Origin: Burkholderiales bacterium | Lineage (GTDB): Bacteria; Pseudomonadota; Gammaproteobacteria; Burkholderiales; JACQAP01 | DNA: 55,008 nt | Direction of reading: 5' to 3' | Assembly (NCBI GenBank): GCA_035644415.1 | Contig: DASQOP010000280.1 | Span: forward strand, 1 to 55,008 | In this document: positions 2,955 through 55,008 of the stretch, piece after piece | Position numbering within the stretch: the stretch's first letter is position 1 | Layout: each line of letters begins with the position of its first letter | Program-made: the position numbers and the translations under genes | Notes under the pieces: model-generated | What the model saw: the letters and a program-made list of their open reading frames with translations, nothing else | Told to the model about the DNA's origin: nothing | Databases searched by the model: none

Positions 2955-3055
2955 AAAATAAAGGGGCACGTTATCCGCGTGCCCCCACTGCAATCACATT
3001 GGTCCCAGCTGGAGAAGGTCCCCGACATGGAACACGGTTCCAAGGAGCGAACTCG

Positions 3056-3571
3056 ATGGAACGTAACTCTTTTTTGATTGTAGCCAAAGCGGTCCTGGCG
3101 GACAAGAGAATTTCCGCTACAGCCAAGTTACTTCTGGCGGTCCTCGCGGATCACTGGAACAAAAACACGGGGCAGTGTAATCCCCATGAAGCGACTCTGG
3201 CGGAGGAAATCGGCGTTTGCCGCCGCACCGTAATTCGCGCCTTGGCGGAGTTAAAGACGGCTGGGCTGATCCAGGTGCAACGGACCCAGCGGGGCAATCG
3301 GTACGAGTTCCCGAAGTGCCAAAATGTCACTTCCCAAGTGACAAATAGTCACTCTGCAGAGTGCCAAAATGTCACTTCGGAACCTCCGTATCCTTTATAT
3401 GAACCTTACTTAGGTGAACCTAGCGGCTTACGCGCGCAAAAACGGCGCGCTCCCGCCGCGTCTCCTCCTAATCCAAAACCTCTCCACGCCCCGCTGCCGC
3501 GCCGTAAATCGGTGCAGAGCGCAACGCTGGAAGCGTTCTACCGCGAAGAGCGAAGAAAGGCAGGAAGGTGA
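3056..3571 (+). CDS. winged-helix DNA-binding protein, replication-initiator-like
   Basis: AAGGAG 8 nt upstream of ATG; ..ATLAEEIGVCRRTVIRALAELKTAGLIQVQR.. wHTH typical for phage/plasmid initiator-type proteins; gene contains iterons (3315-3378). Confidence 0.65.
   Translation: MERNSFLIVAKAVLADKRISATAKLLLAVLADHWNKNTGQCNPHEATLAEEIGVCRRTVIRALAELKTAGLIQVQRTQRGNRYEFPKCQNVTSQVTNSHSAECQNVTSEPPYPLYEPYLGEPSGLRAQKRRAPAASPPNPKPLHAPLPRRKSVQSATLEAFYREERRKAGR
3315..3378. repeat. iteron cluster inside the wHTH gene (candidate origin)
   Basis: 19-nt direct repeat AGTGCCAAAATGTCACTTC at 3315-3333 and 3360-3378 (45-nt period), flanking the palindrome AGTGAC-aaata-GTCACT (3337-3353). Confidence 0.5.
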
Positions 3572-4429
3572 ATGTCTGCCAGCCTGATAGTGCAGCACAT
3601 AAAGACCTATCAAGATGATGATCGCGTGCGCGACACGGATCTAGCTGAGTGGCTTGGCTATGCTGACCCTCGCAAGATTCGGCAGACGATCAACAGGCAT
3701 CGAACGCAACTAGAAAAAGTCGGAGTTATTCACACGGTGGGAATAACCTCCGGGGATCTTGGGGGCCGCCCAGCCTCAGAGAATTGGCTCACAGTTAAAC
3801 AGTGCCTGCTTCTCTGTACCTATGCGGAGACGGCCAACGCCGATCAGGTTCGCATCGCTCTCGTGGAAGCCTTCGACCAGTACAGGAAAAGTAAGCTGGT
3901 TGCCGTCGAGCCGTCCTTGGAAATGTCAGTTCTCGATACTCAGGCCCGTCAAATTTGGGTGCCGCTCCAGCGCATGGTGCGCCAGGAGATCGAGCCTATG
4001 CAGAATGACGTTCGTGCCTTGCGCGGTGACGTCCAAGAGGTAAAACAGATCGTCCGCACGGAGGCAGACGATATCAAGCGCGAGATCCGGGAAAGCCGTC
4101 AGAAGTACAGATGGAAGCCGATTGACCAAGCCGACAAACTGCTCCATATCGATTGCTTATGGAGACGGCACGCCGGAATCTGCCCGCGCTGCAAGCGCAC
4201 CGTCATCGTAGATCAGGACGGAGTGCCGACCGCCGAGTTTGAGATCGATCACAATTTCGCCCCTTGGAAAAATGCCCTCACAGAAACGTGGCCATTGTGT
4301 TCGCGCTGCAATAAGGAGGTCAACGCCGCCGAAGAACGGCAGAAGTGCCAGGACGATTTCCACTCCTATCAGAAATCATTGCAAGCCCACCGCGAGGATT
4401 TGCACTTTCCCCTATTGAGGCATTTATGA
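3572..4429 (+). CDS. Rha-type phage regulatory domain fused to a C-terminal HNH-like zinc module
   Basis: N-terminus DLAEWLGY..IRQTI..H..LEK..WLTVKQCLLLCTYAETANADQVRIALVEAF resembles Rha/antirepressor proteins; C-terminus CPRCKRTV..EIDHNF..N..CSRCN is HNH-like. Confidence 0.65.
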   Translation: MSASLIVQHIKTYQDDDRVRDTDLAEWLGYADPRKIRQTINRHRTQLEKVGVIHTVGITSGDLGGRPASENWLTVKQCLLLCTYAETANADQVRIALVEAFDQYRKSKLVAVEPSLEMSVLDTQARQIWVPLQRMVRQEIEPMQNDVRALRGDVQEVKQIVRTEADDIKREIRESRQKYRWKPIDQADKLLHIDCLWRRHAGICPRCKRTVIVDQDGVPTAEFEIDHNFAPWKNALTETWPLCSRCNKEVNAAEERQKCQDDFHSYQKSLQAHREDLHFPLLRHL

Positions 4430-4836
4430 AAGCGTTGACTCCTGAAACCGCCGCCGCTGTCGTCGGCAAGCTCGCGTTGATGGCTTTCTTTCCTAGCGAC
4501 CCCGAGGTCCGCGCGGGGCTGGTCGCCATTTTCATAGAGATGGTTGAAACCGACGAGCAGATGGAGTGGCTGGGTAGCCGGGCGATGCGCATGTTTGCAC
4601 GCTGGCCTGGCGTGGCGGAAATCCGCGCGCTCTACTGTTCGCGGTACAAACCGAGGGACGGCCTCGAAAGTTACAGCGAGATTTACCCAGAGGGCTTCCC
4701 AACTGAACGAAAAGAGCCCGAGCCAGGCCGCGCTGCGCGTCGCGGCGAGCCGGTCACAGCGGACCCGGTCCTCGACCGTAAGATTCGGACAGTAGCAGCC
4801 AGCAAGAAGCTGAAGCCCGTCCGAAAGGGGCGATAA
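4426..4836 (+). CDS. hypothetical protein
   Basis: ATGA overlap with the upstream stop; in-frame part of track ORF 4345..4836. Confidence 0.6.
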   Translation: MKALTPETAAAVVGKLALMAFFPSDPEVRAGLVAIFIEMVETDEQMEWLGSRAMRMFARWPGVAEIRALYCSRYKPRDGLESYSEIYPEGFPTERKEPEPGRAARRGEPVTADPVLDRKIRTVAASKKLKPVRKGR

Positions 4837-16864: not shown

Positions 16865-17114
16865 GGGCTATGGGCTATGGCCTATGGCCTATGGGTACGG
16901 GCGGCTGGGCGGCTGTGGGGCGGTACGGGCGGCTGGGCAGCCTTGGGAGCGGCTGGGCGGCTGAAATGGGGCGGCTGGGCGGCTGTAGGGGATACGAGGC
17001 GATTCTAGGGCAGCTAGCGGGCGGCTGTAGGGGATTGTACGGGGCGGTACGGGCGGCTGGGCGGCTGTAGAGCAAAAAAAAGCCGCCCCGTAGGGCGGCC
17101 CGGCTGGGCGGCTG
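16865..17114 (+). repeat. G-rich iteron field (7-nt phased GGSCTAT x4, then CGGCTGGGCGGCTG x5 plus degenerate copies)
   Basis: Perfect 14-mers at 16902, 16950, 16972, 17054 and 17101; GGTACGGGCGGCTGGGC three times; lies between convergent terminators. Confidence 0.8.
17074..17099 (-). terminator. rho-independent terminator of the - strand gene
   Basis: On the - strand: GCCGCCC-tacg-GGGCGGC followed by TTTTTTTT. Confidence 0.75.
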
Positions 17115-17116
17115 TT

Positions 17117-17638
17117 TTAGGCGAATTTGAATTCAAATCCCGCGCTACCGTAGGGCTTTGCTTCGATGTCATACGGCCTTGAGCCATCGAATCCCAATGT
17201 TTTGAATTGCTTGGTAGCGGAGATGTACGGCCTACCCGAAGCATCGCGCACATCCAGCGCGCCTTCTACCTCTTTCGCTTGAGGCACAATCCGTACCATT
17301 CGCCCTTCGATGGTAAGCGTAGCGAATTTGGGCTTTGGCGTACCTAGCCGCTCTGCTGCATCCTTCCCGAAGCATACGCGCCCTGTCTTGTTGAGATGAA
17401 TCGCAAATTCTGTAGGCTTGTCGGCCTTGGGAGCGGCGGGAGCGGCGGGAGCGGGCTTGGCAGCGGCAGCGGGCTTGACAGCAGCAGCGGGCTTGACAGC
17501 AGCAGCGGGCTTGGCAGCAGCAGCGGGCTTGACAGCAGCAGCGGGCTTGACAGCGGCAGCGGGCTTGGCAGCGCTTTTCAGGGCAGTAGCTAAGGCCTTG
17601 CCTACGGTAGCGGTAACATTCAAATTCTTTTTTGCCAT
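17117..17638 (-). CDS. DNA-binding protein: histone-H1/AlgP-like (KPAAAV)n repeat N-terminus plus AbrB/SpoVT-like C-terminal domain
   Basis: AAKPAAAVKPAAAVKPAAAAKPAAAV.. repeat; C-terminal ..TGRVCFGKDAAERLGTPKPKFATLTIEGRMVRIVP.. fits the swapped-hairpin AbrB pattern. Confidence 0.7.
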   Translation of the reverse strand: MAKKNLNVTATVGKALATALKSAAKPAAAVKPAAAVKPAAAAKPAAAVKPAAAVKPAAAAKPAPAAPAAPKADKPTEFAIHLNKTGRVCFGKDAAERLGTPKPKFATLTIEGRMVRIVPQAKEVEGALDVRDASGRPYISATKQFKTLGFDGSRPYDIEAKPYGSAGFEFKFA

Positions 17639-28110: not shown

Positions 28111-29202
28111 ATGGCAACCTTAACCGCTCCCGCGCCGCTGGCAGGAGGACCGATCTCCTGCCCGGCGAATATTCAGGAGACCAGAATCGCGTTCGGCTAC
28201 AAGCCGCAGACGGACGTGCCGACGATCAACGCGCTTGCCGACATGTGGGCGCTGACCAAGGTGAATCCGGCCCTGTCGGTGGTCAATCCGGTCAACGAAA
28301 CCAACGCGCTCGATATCGGCAAGGGTAACGAGTTCCCCAGCCAGACGTTCCCGTCGCATCAGGACACCAGCGTGGCTCTCGAAAAGTACGTCTCGAGTGA
28401 GTTCCTCGCCTGGCTGTTCTGTTTCACAACCGGCCAAGCCACCAAGACCGTGGCCGGAACCGGCTTCGCCTATGCGGCCGTGCCCAACGATCCCGCGGTT
28501 ACCTGCATCAATCTGCCGTGCTTCACCTGGGACGAGCAGATCCGGCCTTCCCCGAATTCGGTAGTAGACCGGGCGCTGATCGGCTGTGTGGTGGGCGACT
28601 GGGCGCTGACCATGTCCAGCGGGCCGGGGCGCGCCAACTGCCGGGTGGCCTGCACGCTTCCCGGGTCGGGGCGCGTGCAGAGTCCCGGCCTGTCGCCGCT
28701 GCCCGCGCTCACGCCGGAGCACTTCCTGAACGCCTCGGGTGCTTTCATTACCATCAACGGCATTGATTACGTGCTTCAGCAGACCTTCATGAGCCTGGAG
28801 TTTCGCTACAACAACAACGTGCGGCTCGACACCGGGCTATATCCCGGCTCGGGCACCCAAAACGGTTTCGGCGTGCGAGGCCGCATGGAATACGGCGTCC
28901 GCGAAATGAGTTTGAATTTCGTGGCCCGCGCGCAGAAAGGCAGCATAGAGTACAACAACTTGATCAATCAGGTGGAAGGGCCGGTGAGCTTCGGGGTGAA
29001 GGGGGCGCTAATCGACACCACCTTCTACCACAATTTCACGATCTCGATGCCGCGCACCATCATGCAGGCGGTGGTCAATGGCGACGACGCCAACATCGTC
29101 ACCGTGCAGTGCGGGGTCACGGCGCTGCAACCGACCGACGGGATCACGCCCATCATCACCATGAGCGCCACCACCACGAAGGACGGAATCCTGGGGCTAT
29201 GA
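28111..29202 (+). CDS. major tail (tube) protein (positional)
   Basis: GGAGGTGAT RBS 7 nt upstream of ATG 28111; large beta-rich protein preceding chaperone and tape measure. Confidence 0.55.
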   Translation: MATLTAPAPLAGGPISCPANIQETRIAFGYKPQTDVPTINALADMWALTKVNPALSVVNPVNETNALDIGKGNEFPSQTFPSHQDTSVALEKYVSSEFLAWLFCFTTGQATKTVAGTGFAYAAVPNDPAVTCINLPCFTWDEQIRPSPNSVVDRALIGCVVGDWALTMSSGPGRANCRVACTLPGSGRVQSPGLSPLPALTPEHFLNASGAFITINGIDYVLQQTFMSLEFRYNNNVRLDTGLYPGSGTQNGFGVRGRMEYGVREMSLNFVARAQKGSIEYNNLINQVEGPVSFGVKGALIDTTFYHNFTISMPRTIMQAVVNGDDANIVTVQCGVTALQPTDGITPIITMSATTTKDGILGL

Positions 29203-29204
29203 GG

Positions 29205-29795
29205 CTAGAAGGGAAATTCGTCCCAATGAAAGTCGAGGGTCACGTTCGCCGCCTCAAAGTAGTGCGCTTGAATGCGTACCCGCTTTGCAGTCTGCAATTG
29301 AGCGATCAATTCCGATTGCCCGGTCCAGGCCGCGTTGGTCTGGTCATCGAATCGGAGCATCGTGAAATTCTGGACCGGCCCTTCATCGAAGCGAACGCGC
29401 AAAGGGCACACTATGCCGTAGCTTTTCCAATCCCCAATGAACTGGCCACGCTCCAGATGCAGGGACAAGATAAAGAGGCCCGGTTTCTCTTCGCTCACTC
29501 GCAATGTGCCATGCTGCGGCCCGTTGTAAGGGAAAGGAAACTCGACAAGATTGGTAGACCGCAGCGTGGCGAACCGCTGTTCGGTCCCATCCAGATCGTC
29601 GCGGGCGCCCCCGTGTTTCCACTGCTCCGGTTCTGGCTGCGCAGCCTCTTGATCCGGTTCCTTGGCAGCGGGCAGAGGAGCGGCGGGAACAGGAACCATA
29701 GCCGCTCGGCCGGAGTTGTAGGCAGTTGGGCGCTCCAGCCGGAACCAGTAACCCGCGCCTGCGGCGATCAGGACAATAAATATGAATCTGTGCAT
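29205..29795 (-). CDS. membrane-anchored moron protein of unknown function
   Basis: Opposite strand inside the tail operon; starts MHRFIFIVLIAAGAGYWF (signal-anchor), then a Pro/Glu-rich linker and a beta-rich domain; TACAAT lies 9 nt upstream. Confidence 0.6.
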   Translation of the reverse strand: MHRFIFIVLIAAGAGYWFRLERPTAYNSGRAAMVPVPAAPLPAAKEPDQEAAQPEPEQWKHGGARDDLDGTEQRFATLRSTNLVEFPFPYNGPQHGTLRVSEEKPGLFILSLHLERGQFIGDWKSYGIVCPLRVRFDEGPVQNFTMLRFDDQTNAAWTGQSELIAQLQTAKRVRIQAHYFEAANVTLDFHWDEFPF

Positions 29796-29869: not shown

Positions 29870-29908
29870 AAAAATGGAAGGCGCGGTGGGTTATTTCTCG
29901 CGCCTTCC
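29870..29908 (-). terminator. intrinsic terminator on the - strand, directly after the array/palindrome
   Basis: GGAAGGCGCG-13 nt loop-CGCGCCTTCC followed by ATTTTT (read on the - strand). Confidence 0.6.
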
Positions 29909-29911
29909 TGT

Positions 29912-30013
29912 GTGCCATTGGCACCCTCGCCTTGCCGCACCGCGCCAAACCCAGCCATGGCTAGCCATGCCCAGCCGTGCCGAGCCTTGCCACGCCAGGC
30001 CCAGCCAAGCCCT
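29912..30013 (-). repeat. pentamer-phased G-rich array plus GTGCCAATGGCAC cap (copy A, inverted)
   Basis: On the - strand, 20 in-phase pentamers GGCTT GGCTG GGCCT GGCGT GGCAA ... GGCGA GGGTG CCAAT GGCAC. Confidence 0.85.
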
Positions 30014-52003: not shown

Positions 52004-52093
52004 AACCGCGATGGCGATGACACCAGCGCGGCGAGGTCAGGCGGAGGCAGGGCTCGGCAGGGTTTTTTGAAAAGAAGGTTTTTAATTTGCCGG

Positions 52094-52183
52094 GGCAGGG
52101 TGTGGCACGGCTGGGCACGGCACGGCCGGGCAGGGCAGGGCAGGGCAGGGCAGGGTACGGCGAGGCGAGGGTGCCAATGGCAC
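52094..52183 (+). repeat. pentamer-phased G-rich array plus GTGCCAATGGCAC cap (copy B)
   Basis: 18 in-phase pentamers including (GGCAG)x5; palindrome at 52171-52183; a shorter array remnant lies at 52030-52063. Confidence 0.9.
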
Positions 52184-52214
52184 AAATCAACTAAGAAGGG
52201 CAGAAACAACAACT

Positions 52215-52883
52215 ATGAGAACCATTGAAGTGGAACTTACCAGCGAAATGCCGCTCTTAATGCACGCGGATAACATCGACTGGGCAGACAAGATGGAAGA
52301 CTGGAAGAACGATCCCAAGAACAAGAGTAAGTCAAAGCCAGGAGACGATAGAACTCCCGCCTGGAGGTGGCTCGGGTGCCTAAACTACGATGATCCGAAG
52401 ACCGGCGTCGTGACCGTTCCATCCGAATACATCATGCGGTGCCTCATGGGAGGCGCAGCGGAAGTACCGACCGGCAAGGGCCGGAAGACCTTTAAGGAAC
52501 TGAGCCAGAGCGGCATTCTATGCGAAAAATTTCACTGGCCTTTGCTAATCAATGGGGAAAAGAAGCCGGTGCGAATGGAGGATATCAATCAATTATTGAA
52601 GGTCCCCCGTTTCCCGGACCAGGTCGAGGGCGCTAAGGCGCTGGGCTTCTCTCTCTTTGTCAAACGCGCAAGAGTCGGCAATAACAAACATATCCGAGTC
52701 CGGCCGCGTTTTGACGATTGGAGTACGAGAGGTGAACTGATGATCATCGACGATCAGATCACCAATGATGTGGTCGCTAGTATTCTCGACATCTCGGGAA
52801 GGTTGAAGGGTCTTGGAGATTGGAGGCCGAGCGCTAAGACTCCGGGACCGTTCGGGACGTTCAAGGCGAAGATTGTGAGTTAA
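52215..52883 (+). CDS. accessory (cargo) protein of unknown function
   Basis: 222-aa ORF, visibly lower GC than its surroundings, 31 nt downstream of the palindrome. Confidence 0.7.
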   Translation: MRTIEVELTSEMPLLMHADNIDWADKMEDWKNDPKNKSKSKPGDDRTPAWRWLGCLNYDDPKTGVVTVPSEYIMRCLMGGAAEVPTGKGRKTFKELSQSGILCEKFHWPLLINGEKKPVRMEDINQLLKVPRFPDQVEGAKALGFSLFVKRARVGNNKHIRVRPRFDDWSTRGELMIIDDQITNDVVASILDISGRLKGLGDWRPSAKTPGPFGTFKAKIVS

Positions 52884-52978
52884 GGCATGGCTCGGCGCGG
52901 TAGGGTCGGGCTGGGCCTGGCCTGGCAAGGCCGGGCGCGGTGCGGCATGGTTGGGCAGGGCGAGGGTGCCAATGGCAC
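52884..52978 (+). repeat. pentamer-phased G-rich array plus cap (copy C)
   Basis: 19 in-phase pentamers starting the base after the stop codon; palindrome at 52966-52978. Confidence 0.9.
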
Positions 52979-52996
52979 AAATGAAAGGAGGAAGTT

Positions 52997-53491
52997 ATGA
53001 GTCATGGATTTCGCGGCGGCATTCCCTACGCGGTTGACGTGAACCGCCTGAAGGATGCTTTCCCGGTGCCGATGCTCGCCGAAGGGCGAGTCATTGAACA
53101 TGCCGACTTAGAAGAAATCGTGAAGGCGAAGAGGGGCGGGCAGCGCTACTACGGAGTCATCAACTCCTGGATCAATAGCATGAAAAACACCAACGGAATT
53201 TTCATGACCTGGGAGACGTCGGTGGGCGTAAAGGTTCTGGGCCCGGCGGAAATTCTAGCTCACGCTGAGATCAGGACCCGGCAGAAGATCAAGCAGACCG
53301 GCAATGCGGTGAAGACCTTCGTATGGGTCGACCGAACGAGATTGGACAGCACGGGGCAGCAGCGTTTGGATCACCAGGAGCGCGTCGCCAACGCGATCAG
53401 GGATGCGCTGAACACTGCCAGAAAAGATTTGGCGATAGACCTGGCGCCGGTAAAGTCTCTGCCAAAACCGAAAATGATTCGGGAGGCCTGA
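52997..53491 (+). CDS. accessory (cargo) protein of unknown function
   Basis: AGGAGG RBS; ATG 18 nt after the palindrome; 164 aa, lower GC. Confidence 0.7.
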   Translation: MSHGFRGGIPYAVDVNRLKDAFPVPMLAEGRVIEHADLEEIVKAKRGGQRYYGVINSWINSMKNTNGIFMTWETSVGVKVLGPAEILAHAEIRTRQKIKQTGNAVKTFVWVDRTRLDSTGQQRLDHQERVANAIRDALNTARKDLAIDLAPVKSLPKPKMIREA

Positions 53492-53498
53492 AGAAGTT

Positions 53499-53599
53499 TG
53501 GTCCGGTCGGGCTCGGCAAGGCCCGGTGGGGCTAGGCGTGGCGGGGTGCGGCTAGGCAAGGTTGGGTATGGTACGGCGAGGCAAGGGTGCCAATGGCAC
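53499..53599 (+). repeat. pentamer-phased G-rich array plus cap (copy D)
   Basis: 20 in-phase pentamers; palindrome at 53587-53599. Confidence 0.9.
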
Positions 53600-53615
53600 A
53601 CGGGATTGTGATTTC

Positions 53616-53701
53616 GGTACGGCGAGGCGAGGCCTGGCAGGGTGTGGGCATGGTGTGGCGAGGCGAGGCGAGGTATGGCAGGGCGAGGGTGCCAATGGCA
53701 C
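53616..53701 (+). repeat. pentamer-phased G-rich array plus cap (copy E)
   Basis: 6 + 11 pentamers with a single 1-nt phase slip; palindrome at 53689-53701. Confidence 0.9.
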
Positions 53702-53726
53702 ATGAGAATTCATTTCGTAAGGTTTG

Positions 53727-53873
53727 CGGCGAGGGCAGGGCAAGGTCGGGTCAGGCTCGGCTCGGTCAGGCAGGCCAAGGCTGGGTCAGGTCAGGTGGGG
53801 TGGGGCATGGTCGGGCTCGGTCAGGCAAGGCCGGGCAGGGCAGGGTACGGCGAGGCGAGGGTGCCAATGGCAC
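53727..53873 (+). repeat. pentamer-phased G-rich array plus cap (copy F)
   Basis: 28 pentamers in one phase; palindrome at 53861-53873; a 6-7 unit remnant lies at 53906-53940. Confidence 0.9.
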
Positions 53874-53982
53874 GAACGGGATGTTTGCAAGTTCCGGCAA
53901 TGCGCGGCTGGGCTGGGCGCGGCGAGGCACGGCAGGCCAGGAGGAACCAGCGGGTTTCCAATGGGAAATGTCAAAATGAGCC

Positions 53983-54351
53983 ATGCAATCACAAAAGCCT
54001 AGTACAGAACAACAGGAGCGCCCGCAGCTTCCGTGGGGCATGGGCAGCGCCAGGATCAAGGGCCGCGTCTGGTGGATTACGTACCGAGATCCGAAAGGCA
54101 AGATACACCTCGAAAATTCCGGCACCGGGGATCCCGCCGAGGCCCAACGGATCATGGCACAGAAGGCTTTGCCACGAGCGTGGGCAATGGTCGCGGCCTT
54201 GGAGAAGTTAGCCAATGCAGAACCCCAAGGTCCCAACAGTAAGGGTGGTAAGCGGCCACGATCTGGATCTGTCGCGCCGGTCGGCACTGCGGCTGCTGCG
54301 GCTGCTCGAAAGGCTGGCGGCAAAGCGACTCGCAAGGGAGGCAAAGCGTGA
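53983..54351 (+). CDS. small protein with an integrase Arm-type DNA-binding-like domain and a Lys/Ala-rich tail
   Basis: ..KGRVWWITYRDPKGKIHLENSGTGDPAEAQRIMAQK.. resembles the N-terminal arm-binding domain of tyrosine integrases; stop overlaps the recombinase start (GTGA). Confidence 0.55.
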   Translation: MQSQKPSTEQQERPQLPWGMGSARIKGRVWWITYRDPKGKIHLENSGTGDPAEAQRIMAQKALPRAWAMVAALEKLANAEPQGPNSKGGKRPRSGSVAPVGTAAAAAARKAGGKATRKGGKA

Positions 54352-55008
54352 CGCGAAAGACTGATCTCCCTTGGTTCGTCTATATCCGGGTAAGCTCCAA
54401 AGACCAAGGCGACAAGTACGGGCCGTCGAGACAGATCGAGGCCATTCGGAACTGGCTGCAGGTCAATGTGCCCCATGTCCGCGTGCCGGGACTGGATACC
54501 TGCATCGCTGGGCCGCGCGATGTGCGGCAGTGCGAGTATGTTGGATTCGACAAGCAGAGCGGCAAGACCGACGAGCGGCCCGACTTTCAGCGCGGCTGCG
54601 AGTTAGCGAAGGCAGGCAGGATCGGCGGGTTCATTGCCCTCCGGTTGGATCGAGTGGCGCGCAATGCGGGAGACGCCTACCTGCTTCGCTCCAGGATGAA
54701 GCGCATGGGCGTGCGGCTGGAATTCGCCACCCAGACGTTCGACGCCACGCCGACCGGCGACCTGATGTATCAGGTGTACGCGAGTTTCGCGGAGTTAGAA
54801 GGGAAGCTGATTTTGGAGCGCACCGCGGATGGCCGCATGGGCCGTCTGTGCGGCGACAAGTTATTCCACAACCCCAACGCGATGCCTTACGGTTACCTCT
54901 ACGTGGATGAAGCGGTCGCGAAAAAGAATCCGGGCGCGGTCATCGGCAGGGCGATCATCAACGAGCAAGAGGCCAAGATCGTGCGCCTGATCTTCCGCTG
55001 GTACGTGG
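54348..55008 (+). CDS. large serine recombinase, N-terminal catalytic (resolvase) domain (3' end cut by window edge)
   Basis: My translation: VTRKTDLPWFVYIRVSSKDQ...GGFIALRLDRVARN...MYQVYASFAELEGKLILERT..; catalytic Ser motif, RxDR and the E-helix are all present; open to the last base. Confidence 0.9.
   Translation, partial: MTRKTDLPWFVYIRVSSKDQGDKYGPSRQIEAIRNWLQVNVPHVRVPGLDTCIAGPRDVRQCEYVGFDKQSGKTDERPDFQRGCELAKAGRIGGFIALRLDRVARNAGDAYLLRSRMKRMGVRLEFATQTFDATPTGDLMYQVYASFAELEGKLILERTADGRMGRLCGDKLFHNPNAMPYGYLYVDEAVAKKNPGAVIGRAIINEQEAKIVRLIFRWYV

What the first reader, a model, noticed from the sequence alone, without database searches (positions are those of the whole stretch)
52215..53491. 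Two lower-GC cargo genes, each delivered behind an array: cassette-like layout next to the recombinase
52215..52883 (222 aa) and 52997..53491 (164 aa) are visibly AT-richer than the phage backbone and belong to no family I can name. They occupy the classic moron/defence slot between the recombination module and the integrase. Each is immediately preceded by an array plus palindrome (palindrome-to-ATG distance 31 and 18 nt). The only accessory-looking gene in the virion module (29205..29795) carries the same element 5' of it, in its own orientation. Repeated element-gene units beside a site-specific recombinase recall integron attC-cassette logic, but here with a serine recombinase and an unrelated repeat. 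This is the best candidate in the window for an undescribed lysogen-expressed system such as defence or superinfection exclusion.
Basis: inference. Interest (0 to 1): 0.65.

Follow-up and report, generated by a model that had tools for sequence, protein, structure and literature searches.

The report
Phage VIPR RNA-guided silencing locus
The two "cargo" genes and the repeat arrays around them form one known system, a phage-borne VIPR locus (a Cas7-like protein, an accessory protein and several GGYNN-repeat guide RNAs) of the kind first described in 2026, and one guide matches the terminase gene of another phage almost perfectly.

Summary
The sequence features are real, but the integron-like cassette reading is wrong.

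- **Arrays.** They are runs of 15-25 pentamers GGYNN (G 99%, G 98%, Y 99%, NN free; 113 units). Each ends in an invariant tail, GGCGAGGGTGCCAATGGCAC, which forms a 5-bp hairpin.
- **Array distribution.** Eight arrays exist. Four have no gene directly behind them (A3-A5 and A7), so the arrays do not deliver genes.
- **Protein 52215-52883.** It is a Vipr protein. Its family profile hits PDB 36pp "SUSP1 Vipr protein" at E 6.6e-15. Its model folds like Csm3/Cas7, and the GGY-contacting residues are conserved.
- **Protein 52997-53491.** It is Vap1-like.
- **Layout.** The order guide - vipr - guide - vap - three guides mirrors phage SUSP1.
- **Known system.** It matches VIPR (bioRxiv 10.64898/2026.04.26.720920 and .720927). 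There, Vipr polymerises on the guide, one protomer per pentamer, and the NN bases read DNA while skipping every third base.
- **Targets.** Under that rule guide A2 matches a foreign viral contig at 31/32 positions. The site lies inside its large terminase gene, and every skipped base is a codon wobble position. Guide A3 matches the portal gene of the same contig at 24/34. There is no self-target.

Verdict: a new member of a known kind, most like type II VIPR. It has longer guides, a simple hairpin tail and one orphan guide 22 kb away.

The parts
52030..52064 (+). Short tail-less GGYNN remnant (about 5-7 units with a register break), followed by a T-run and an AT-rich stretch. It may be a decayed guide and/or the promoter region of the locus.
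52094..52183 (+). vrRNA A1: 15 GGYNN units plus the invariant tail GGGTGCCAATGGCAC. Its NN content is low in complexity (GGCAG x5). It ends 31 nt before the vipr ATG.
52215..52883 (+). vipr: a 222-aa RAMP (Cas7/Csm3-like) protein that should coat vrRNA, one protomer per pentamer.
   Evidence: PDB 36pp_D 'SUSP1 Vipr protein' E 6.6e-15. tblastn to the phiSUSP1 gene is full length, E 7e-9. AF2 pLDDT 81, and the top Foldseek hits are Csm3/Cas7. H17, E71, R163 and D202-W203-R204 align with the SUSP1 GGY-contact residues. PHROG 4652.
52884..52978 (+). vrRNA A2: 16 units plus tail. It starts directly after the vipr stop codon and ends 18 nt before the vap ATG. Its guide matches a foreign TerL gene at 31/32 NN positions.
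52997..53491 (+). vap1-like accessory gene, 164 aa: a winged-helix-like N-terminal half followed by a long helical hairpin.
   Evidence: The family HMM hits the SUSP1 vap1 ORF at E 2.6e-5. hhalign gives 72% probability, E 3e-5. AF2 pLDDT 89. Foldseek hits are weak but nearly all winged-helix DNA binders. The gene is adjacent to vipr in relatives.
53500..53599 (+). vrRNA A3: 17 units plus tail, with no ORF behind it. Best match is 24/34 in the portal gene of the contig that A2 targets.
53616..53701 (+). vrRNA A4: 7 + 8 units with a 1-nt register shift, plus tail. NN content is low in complexity and there is no ORF behind it. It may be decaying.
53734..53873 (+). vrRNA A5: 25 units (one degenerate unit, GCCAA) plus tail, with no ORF behind it.
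53896..53967 (+). A6: 8 units, then a 15-nt non-repeat insert and a variant hairpin, TTTCC-AAT-GGGAA (with one G.U pair). It is a degenerate or divergent vrRNA and lies upstream of the 122-aa ORF 53983-54351.
29912..30011 (-). Orphan vrRNA A7: 17 units (one degenerate unit, GCCAT) plus the identical tail. It lies 22 kb from vipr, on the opposite strand, inside the virion module.
29870..29908 (-). Terminator-like 10-bp GC hairpin followed by five U, directly after the A7 tail. It separates A7 from ORF 29795-29205.
   Evidence: MFE -33 kcal/mol, z = -3.9. The simple terminator scan missed it because the loop is 13 nt.

Best explanation
The region 52030-53967, together with a remote guide at 30011-29912, is a VIPR (Viral Interference Programmable Repeat) system carried by a roughly 55-kb temperate phage.

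**Shown here**
- A Vipr RAMP gene.
- An adjacent Vap1-like gene.
- Six to eight vrRNA genes built from GGYNN pentamers and capped by a conserved hairpin tail.
- One guide that matches a foreign phage terminase gene under the published pairing rule.

**Inferred from the published SUSP1 work**
- The arrays are transcribed into guide RNAs of about 100-150 nt.
- Vipr protomers polymerise along each guide, one per pentamer. They bury every GGY and present the two NN bases.
- The filament reads double-stranded DNA by pairing NN with two target bases and skipping the third, forming an R-loop/triplex that blocks transcription.
- Vap1 enhances the effect.

**Inferred for this phage**
- The system silences packaging genes (large terminase, probably portal) of a distantly related competing phage.
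- Its own terminase is spared.
For: - **Arrays.** 113 units with G 99% / G 98% / Y 99% / N / N. The 20-nt tail is exact in six copies. The tail stem co-varies across 9 loci: 13 of 14 distinct tails keep all three variable pairs.
- **Link between arrays and Vipr.** A protein-blind (GGYNN)12 scan of viral contigs hit at least 120 contigs, with arrays always on one strand per locus. Of 120 such loci, 66 encode a homologue of the 222-aa protein.
- **Vipr identity.** The family profile hits PDB 36pp_D 'SUSP1 Vipr protein' at E 6.6e-15. tblastn to phiSUSP1 is full length. The model's top structural matches are Csm3/Cas7, including 6ifn_E, the query that the discoverers used. The GGY-contact residues are conserved.
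- **Vap.** It is Vap1-like and lies adjacent to vipr in relatives.
- **Layout.** The order is the same as in SUSP1: one guide upstream and three downstream.
- **Targets under the 1-nt skip rule.**
  - A2 matches L126 458-505 at 31/32. The scan fixed only 18 of those bases, and 13 of the other 14 also match.
  - That site lies inside a GpA-type TerL ORF, and every skipped base falls on codon position 3.
  - A3 reaches 24/34 in the portal ORF of the same 4.5-kb contig, again in wobble phase. This beats all 2000 unit-order shuffles, whose maximum was 22.
  - No guide matches the window itself above shuffle level. The window's own TerL site scores 15/32.
Against: - There are no expression data for this phage. 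The simple sigma-70 scan finds no promoter in the locus.
- Exact 9-12-unit scans found no credible target for A1, A5 or A7. No better target was found for A3 either.
- A1 and A4 have low-complexity NN content. A4 has a register shift. A6 is degenerate. Some guides may therefore be inactive.
- Guide lengths of 15-25 units exceed the 9-16 reported.
- The tail is a plain hairpin, not the SUSP1-clade pseudoknot.
- Vap1 homology is modest (E about 1e-5), and its winged-helix assignment rests on weak structural matches.
Confidence: 0.9

Rival explanations
1. Integron-like cassette system. Each array plus palindrome would be a recombination or delivery element that mobilises the gene behind it, using the neighbouring serine recombinase.
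For: Three ORFs do have an array upstream in their own orientation. A serine recombinase gene starts at 54351. The number of array units differs between relatives.
Against: - A3-A5 have no gene behind them.
- L001 carries a tandem run of at least nine array-hairpin units ahead of a single gene.
- vipr and vap are syntenic and adjacent in all relatives, while the arrays vary.
- The relatives' loci are not next to a recombinase.
- The array's sequence logic (conserved GGY, free NN) is that of a protein-bound guide, not of a recombination site.
- One array's NN code matches a foreign gene at 31/32.
Confidence: 0.02
2. The arrays are cis-acting 5'-UTR regulators or protein sponges. A ring or filament RNA-binding protein would bind period-5 triplets, as TRAP does on the trp leader or CsrA on CsrB, to control translation of the downstream genes. 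No trans DNA targeting would be involved.
For: The period-5 triplet-plus-spacer layout is the TRAP-site pattern (established knowledge). A1 and A2 end 31 and 18 nt before start codons, and the arrays always run in the sense of the genes.
Against: - Most arrays are not in front of a gene.
- A7 ends in its own terminator-like hairpin.
- The associated protein is a RAMP homologous to the characterised Vipr.
- The NN positions of A2 spell a foreign gene under the 1-nt skip rule. A pure sponge or attenuator would not do that.
- Vipr binding to the A1 and A2 leaders could still autoregulate vipr and vap as a side effect.
Confidence: 0.03
3. The locus is a decaying or inactive VIPR remnant that no longer functions.
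For: A4 has a frameshifted register. A6 is degenerate. A1 and A4 have low-complexity NN content. A tail-less remnant sits at 52030. Most guides have no detectable target.
Against: - Both ORFs are intact and full length relative to dozens of homologues.
- The GGY-contact residues are conserved in all five aligned sequences, apart from W203, which is Y in one.
- Six tails are identical over 20 nt.
- A2 retains a 31/32 match to a natural target.
Confidence: 0.05

Closest known systems
Type II VIPR systems (Escherichia phage SUSP1, Pseudomonas fulva prophage); bioRxiv 10.64898/2026.04.26.720920 and 10.64898/2026.04.26.720927
   Same: - A Vipr RAMP of about 200 aa with conserved GGY-contact residues.
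- An adjacent Vap1-like gene.
- GGY/NN pentamer guides with an invariant structured 3' tail that starts GGGTR.
- One guide upstream and three downstream of the coding genes.
- Carried by a phage.
- A natural target in another phage's coding sequence, with skipped bases at wobble positions.
- No self-target.
   Different: - Only 26-28% protein identity to the SUSP1 and LESphi2 Vipr proteins.
- Guides of 15-25 units rather than 9-16.
- The tail is a 5-bp hairpin with a conserved CCAAUGG apex, not a pseudoknot.
- An extra guide lies between vipr and vap.
- One orphan guide with its own terminator-like hairpin lies 22 kb away on the other strand.
- The host is probably an Acidobacteriota-type soil bacterium. 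This rests only on the name of homologue P0004.
- The type assignment rests on architecture and Vap1 similarity, not on the authors' phylogeny.
Class 1 CRISPR-Cas backbone proteins (Cas7/Csm3, e.g. 6ifn_E, 9no4_G)
   Same: RAMP fold with an RRM core, a thumb and a glycine-rich loop. The protein polymerises on a guide RNA with periodic base flipping.
   Different: - There is no repeat-spacer array and no other cas gene.
- The period is 5 nt with 3 bases sequestered, rather than 6 nt with 1 flipped.
- The guide information is non-contiguous.
- No PADLOC, Pfam or NCBIfam Cas model is hit.
Integron attC gene cassettes
   Same: Repeated structured elements in one orientation, next to a site-specific recombinase gene.
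   Different: - The recombinase is a serine recombinase, not an IntI tyrosine recombinase.
- The elements are not one per gene.
- The elements are periodic GGYNN runs, not imperfect attC inverted repeats.
- The gene pair is syntenic in relatives, not shuffled.
TRAP binding sites in Bacillus trp leaders
   Same: A conserved triplet plus a 2-nt spacer (period 5), repeated many times on RNA and bound by a protein oligomer, one subunit per repeat.
   Different: - The triplet is GGY, not (G/U)AG.
- The partner is a RAMP filament, not an 11-mer ring.
- The spacers carry targeting information.

Membership tests
VIPR system | A Vipr protein: a RAMP homologue related to the characterised SUSP1 Vipr. 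| tested here: met
   The profile of 40 homologues hits PDB 36pp_D 'SUSP1 Vipr protein' at E 6.6e-15. tblastn to phiSUSP1 28489-29061 is full length, E 7e-9. The AF2 model's top 15 Foldseek hits are all CRISPR RAMPs, mainly chains of type III Csm complexes plus Cas7-11.
VIPR system | The residues that read GGY in SUSP1 Vipr (H17, R138, D177, W178, R179, E71) are conserved. | tested here: met
   The alignment places window H17, R163, D202, W203, R204 and E71 at these positions. In the five-sequence alignment H17, R163, D202 and R204 are invariant; E71 is Q and W203 is Y in LESphi2. In the 40-member family alignment E71, R163, W203 and R204 are invariant, and H17 and D202 are at least 90% conserved. 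SUSP1 M72 is Y72 here.
VIPR system | vrRNAs: tandem YNNGG/GGYNN repeats (at least 4 units) with conserved GGY and hypervariable NN. | tested here: met
   113 units with G 0.99, G 0.98, Y 0.99, and positions 4-5 not fixed (all four bases at each). There are 8 arrays of 8-25 units. They are longer than the reported 9-16.
VIPR system | An invariant, structured 3' tail capping each repeat tract. | tested here: met
   GGCGAGGGTGCCAATGGCAC is exact in six copies. It forms a 5-bp hairpin whose three outer pairs co-vary in relatives, 13 of 14 distinct tails. The structure differs from the SUSP1 pseudoknot.
VIPR system | A minimal locus of vipr plus one vap gene, flanked by long non-coding regions, with no CRISPR array or other cas genes, and usually viral. 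| tested here: met
   The order is vrRNA-vipr-vrRNA-vap-vrRNA x3. The Vap family HMM hits SUSP1 vap1 at E 2.6e-5. There are no PADLOC or NCBIfam hits. The window carries phage terminase, portal, RecE/RecT and integrase genes.
VIPR system | Guides specify DNA targets by the 1-nt skip rule. Natural targets lie in other mobile elements, skipped bases fall at the wobble position, and there is no self-targeting at 80% or more. | tested here: met
   A2 matches 31/32 in the TerL ORF of viral contig L126, with the skipped base at codon position 3. A3 matches 24/34 in the portal of the same contig, above 2000 of 2000 shuffles. There is no self-hit above the null. No targets were found for A1, A5 or A7.
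VIPR system | vrRNAs are expressed as small RNAs of about 100 nt, co-purify with Vipr, and the complex represses target transcription. | not testable with these tools
   This needs small-RNA sequencing, pull-down and reporter assays. The only indirect support is the terminator-like hairpin after A7.
VIPR type II (SUSP1 / P. fulva type) | Placement in the type II clade of the authors' Vipr phylogeny, with vap1 as the accessory gene and plain arrays without ribozymes. | tested here: inconclusive
   Vap1-like. No hammerhead or other Rfam family is found in the window. The array layout is like SUSP1. The authors' tree and data S4 are not available here.
Integron gene cassettes | One recombination element per promoterless gene, captured by an IntI tyrosine integrase at attI. 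| tested here: not met
   Three consecutive arrays have no ORF. The recombinase is the serine (resolvase) type. The gene pair is syntenic in relatives.
CRISPR-Cas | A repeat-spacer array plus a cas operon (adaptation and effector genes). | tested here: not met
   There are no identical direct repeats separated by unique spacers. The only RAMP is Vipr, and there are no PADLOC hits.

The most novel reading that the evidence does not exclude
Guide units (GGYNN tract plus CCAAUGG hairpin) may behave as duplicable, relocatable modules within and between phage genomes.

The evidence that leaves this open:
- An orphan guide with an identical 20-nt tail and its own terminator sits 22 kb away on the other strand.
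- Guide number and position vary freely among relatives.
- Tail-less and frameshifted remnants lie beside intact units.

If the conserved hairpin were also the site at which new guides are copied or recombined, this locus would bear on how VIPR acquires new specificities. The discovery papers leave that question open.

A second non-excluded twist concerns A1 and A2. They end 31 and 18 nt before the vipr and vap start codons, so Vipr coating of its own leaders could autoregulate the system.
Probability: 0.12. Interest if true: 0.6.

Novelty: new member of a known kind. Interest (0 to 1): 0.35.

Why it matters
VIPR was described only in 2026, and only in E. coli and Pseudomonas phages. This locus is an independent, divergent instance: about 26% Vipr identity, GC-rich, and probably from a soil Acidobacteriota-type phage.

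It obeys the same rules:
- Conserved GGY-reading residues.
- A GGY/NN guide code.
- A natural target read with the 1-nt skip in wobble phase.

It therefore supports the generality of the published code. It gives a concrete, testable guide-target pair: A2 against a GpA-type terminase gene, with the phage's own terminase site as a built-in negative control. It also documents variants that the papers held here do not mention: 15-25-unit guides, a minimal hairpin tail, and a dispersed orphan guide. It does not reveal a new kind of system.

Tried and rejected
**Readings considered and dropped**
- *TRAP-like attenuator or CsrB-like sponge.* This was my first reading of the period-5 triplet pattern. 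I dropped it once the partner protein proved to be a RAMP/Vipr and the NN code of A2 matched a foreign gene.
- *G-quadruplex, RecT-filament, primase-site or centromere/iteron ideas.* The strict strand-sense orientation, Y at position 3 and free NN argue for a protein-read RNA. None of these ideas explains the target match.

**Searches that gave nothing**
- Rfam gathering search of the whole window: no family.
- Pfam, NCBIfam and PADLOC for both proteins: nothing above threshold.
- Self-targeting with skip 0, 1 or 2: nothing above shuffle level. Skip 3 returns only each array itself.
- Promoter scan: no sigma-70 consensus in either region. A TATAAT hexamer 15 nt upstream of A7 has no usable -35, so I do not claim it as a promoter.

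**Target scans for other guides**
- Exact 9-10-unit patterns for A1, A3 (two windows), A5 and A7 were run in viral contigs.
- A7 was run in metagenome contigs, and A5 and A2 in genome contigs.
- The results were either nothing or hits that matched only the bases searched (L125, L127, L134-L137). I regard those as chance.

**Comparison that could not be made**
- Homologues of the 196-aa ORF 29205-29795: none found, so it is an ORFan. I could not test whether relatives carry it with or without A7.
Full report
**Observation.**
- The two ORFs are present exactly as described: 52215-52883 (222 aa) and 52997-53491 (164 aa).
- Their GC content is 0.526 and 0.564, against 0.622 for the window. Only 1.7% of 600-bp windows fall below 0.55.
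- The exact 14-mer GGTGCCAATGGCAC occurs six times. Five copies are on the plus strand (52170, 52965, 53586, 53688, 53860) and one on the minus strand (29912-29925).

**What the arrays are.**
- Each palindrome is the in-register end of a long run of pentamers. Parsing all arrays gives 113 units with G 0.99, G 0.98, pyrimidine 0.99, and two free positions in which all four bases occur.
- The arrays are:
  - A1, 52094-52183, 15 units;
  - A2, 52884-52978, 16 units;
  - A3, 53500-53599, 17 units;
  - A4, 53616-53701, 7+8 units with a 1-nt register slip;
  - A5, 53734-53873, 25 units;
  - A6, 53896-53935, 8 units, followed by a variant hairpin TTTCC-AAT-GGGAA;
  - A7, 30011-29912 on the minus strand, 17 units.
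- A short tail-less remnant lies at 52030-52064.
- Elsewhere in the 55 kb only 5-6-unit GG-phased chance runs occur, in a scan that did not require Y at position 3.
- The last 20 nt, GGCGAGGGTGCCAATGGCAC, are identical in six arrays.
- In related loci the three outer stem pairs change in a compensatory way around a fixed CCAATGG-type core (CC[A/T]A[T/C]GG). Examples are GGCACCAATGGTGC, GACGCCAATGGCGT, GAAGCCAATGGCTT and GTCCCCAATGGGGA. Of 14 distinct tails, 13 keep all three variable pairs.
- The tail is therefore a selected 5-bp hairpin with a 3-nt loop.

**Arrays are not gene leaders.**
- A3, A4 and A5 follow each other with no ORF between or behind them.
- A7 is followed at once by a 10-bp GC hairpin and five U. 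The minimum free energy is -33 kcal/mol, z = -3.9, and 0 of 200 shuffles fold as well.
- ORF 29795-29205 starts 116 nt after the A7 tail. That ORF has no homologue in the protein collection.

**Distribution and the partner protein.**
- A scan of viral contigs for the tail found two loci. L001 has a tandem run of at least nine array-hairpin units. L002 has three arrays with co-varying tails.
In every locus all arrays lie on one strand.
- tblastn with the window's proteins showed that the 222-aa protein recurs in 43 of these loci. No other window protein recurs in more than two of them.
- With a family HMM, 66 of the 120 pattern-selected loci encode a homologue.
- The arrays and this protein are therefore one conserved module.

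**Identification.**
- The 222-aa protein matches no Pfam, NCBIfam or PADLOC model. It is PHROG 4652, of unknown function, at E 5e-22.
- It has more than 1,300 detectable homologues, all unnamed. One comes from an Acidobacteriota MAG.
- A profile of 40 homologues hits PDB 36pp_D, 'SUSP1 Vipr protein', at E 6.6e-15.
- tblastn finds the phiSUSP1 gene over its full length.
- The AlphaFold model has pLDDT 81 and pTM 0.80. Its top 15 structural neighbours are CRISPR RAMPs, mainly chains of type III Csm complexes plus Cas7-11. They include 6ifn_E, the Cas7 query that the discoverers used.
- A literature search returned two 2026 preprints that define VIPR systems. In summary:
  - a small RAMP protein (Vipr) polymerises on vrRNAs made of alternating GGY/NN motifs, one protomer per repeat;
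  - GGY is sequestered, and the NN bases pair with DNA while every third target base is skipped;
  - the complex forms an R-loop/triplex and silences transcription;
  - natural targets lie in competing phages and satellites.
- The residues reported to read GGY in SUSP1 Vipr are H17, R138, D177, W178, R179 and E71. They align with window H17, R163, D202, W203, R204 and E71.

**The second gene.**
- The 164-aa protein has 76 detectable homologues. Many are on the same contigs as Vipr homologues.
- Its family profile matches the SUSP1 vap1 product (hhalign 72%, E 3e-5). Its HMM hits the vap1 ORF at E 2.6e-5. It also hits the ORF next to vipr in L002, L012 and L108-L110 (coordinates), and ORFs in four further loci.
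- Its model has pLDDT 89. It shows a helix-strand-helix-helix-hairpin N-terminal half followed by two long helices.
- Structural matches are weak (E at least 0.02), but almost all are winged-helix DNA binders. This agrees with the paper's description of type II Vap proteins.

**Architecture.**
- phiSUSP1 has one guide upstream of vipr, vap1 directly after vipr, and three guides downstream. Its tails also begin GGGT(G/A)G.
- The window has the same plan with an extra guide between vipr and vap.
- Close relatives of the window's Vipr (62-68% identity) keep vipr and vap adjacent. They carry 3+3, 0+3 or 1+2 guides, and they sit among early genes or terminase genes, not next to a recombinase.

**Targets.** I converted each guide to the published query form (GGY replaced by n).
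- No site in the window exceeds the shuffle level for skip 0, 1 or 2.
- An exact scan of viral contigs with nine units of A2 (18 fixed bases) gave two loci.
  - In L125 nothing else matched (20/32).
  - In L126 (IMGVR_UViG_3300047160_026011) 13 of the remaining 14 bases also match, giving 31/32.
- The L126 site (458-505, minus-sense) lies in a 604-aa GpA-type large terminase ORF (146-1960). All skipped bases fall on codon position 3.
- A3 has its best match anywhere in my 1.1 Mb of loci in the same 4.5-kb contig: 24/34 in the portal ORF, again in wobble phase. This is above all 2000 unit-order shuffles, whose maximum was 22.
- The window's own terminase is 39% identical to the L126 protein, and its homologous site scores 15/32.
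- Scans for A1, A5, A7 and other parts of A3 found nothing credible.

**How it most likely works.**
- *Shown:* the components and the code match.
- *Inferred from SUSP1:* the arrays are transcribed, Vipr coats them one protomer per pentamer, and the filaments bind matching DNA of an incoming or co-resident phage. They block transcription of packaging genes, with Vap1 assisting.
- *Unknown here:* promoters (no sigma-70 consensus was found), processing, and whether A1, A4 and A6 are active.

**Comparison and novelty.**
- The locus meets every VIPR criterion that can be tested in silico. It is best described as type II-like.
- Differences from the characterised systems are:
  - longer guides;
  - a plain hairpin tail;
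  - an intergenic guide between vipr and vap;
  - an orphan guide 22 kb away.
- It is a new member of a known kind. However, the cassette/integron mechanism is refuted, and the system is no longer undescribed.

Noticed in passing
window 54351-55008 and 1-~1000: The serine recombinase ORF runs off the window end (...IVRLIFRWYV). It resumes in frame 0 at the window start (MRLNRKGILTRAGLAWW...). The source contigs are 55,012 and 55,208 bp. The window is therefore probably a circularly permuted, essentially complete phage genome, with the integrase split at the junction.
   Followed up: partly
window 53983-54351: A 122-aa ORF lies directly upstream of the serine recombinase, with a 1-nt overlap. 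It contains GRVWWITYRDPKGKIHLENSGTGDPAEAQRI, which resembles the arm-type N-terminal DNA-binding domain of tyrosine integrases. It has no Pfam, PHROG, NCBIfam or PADLOC hit. It may be a directionality or regulatory factor.
   Followed up: partly
window 29205-29795 (minus): A 196-aa ORF with a hydrophobic N-terminus (MHRFIFIVLIAAGAGYWF) sits antisense inside the virion module, next to the orphan guide. It has no homologue among 5.8 billion protein clusters and no family hit.
   Followed up: partly
window 3308-3378: Three tandem copies of a 22-23-nt unit (TTCCCAAGTGCCAAAATGTCAC) lie in a low-GC patch (3001-4500, GC about 0.55), not far from where the wrapped recombinase gene should end. They may be operator, iteron or attachment-site repeats.
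   Followed up: no
window 16865-17067 and 17450-17573: G-rich tandem repeats: GGGCGGCT-type units, and an 18-nt unit AGCGGGCTTGACAGCAGC repeated 6.8 times at 94% identity. They are probably coding repeats and are unrelated to the GGYNN arrays.
   Followed up: no
window 53600-53615 and 30031-30012 (minus): The spacers just before A4 and A7 share ATTGTGA(t/a)(t/g)TC. The spacers before A1, A3, A5 and A6 contain TTTG(C/G). These may be a vrRNA 5' leader, promoter or processing motif.
   Followed up: no
L001 2300-3290: A 388-kb IMG/VR contig carries a run of at least nine consecutive units of the form GGYNN array - GGGTGCCAATGGCAC - ATTTACAAATCAAGAG, before a gene whose product looks Vap-like by eye (the Vap family HMM did not hit L001). 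Many units are degenerate (GTNNN in place of GGYNN). This is a much larger guide array than in the window or in SUSP1.
   Followed up: partly
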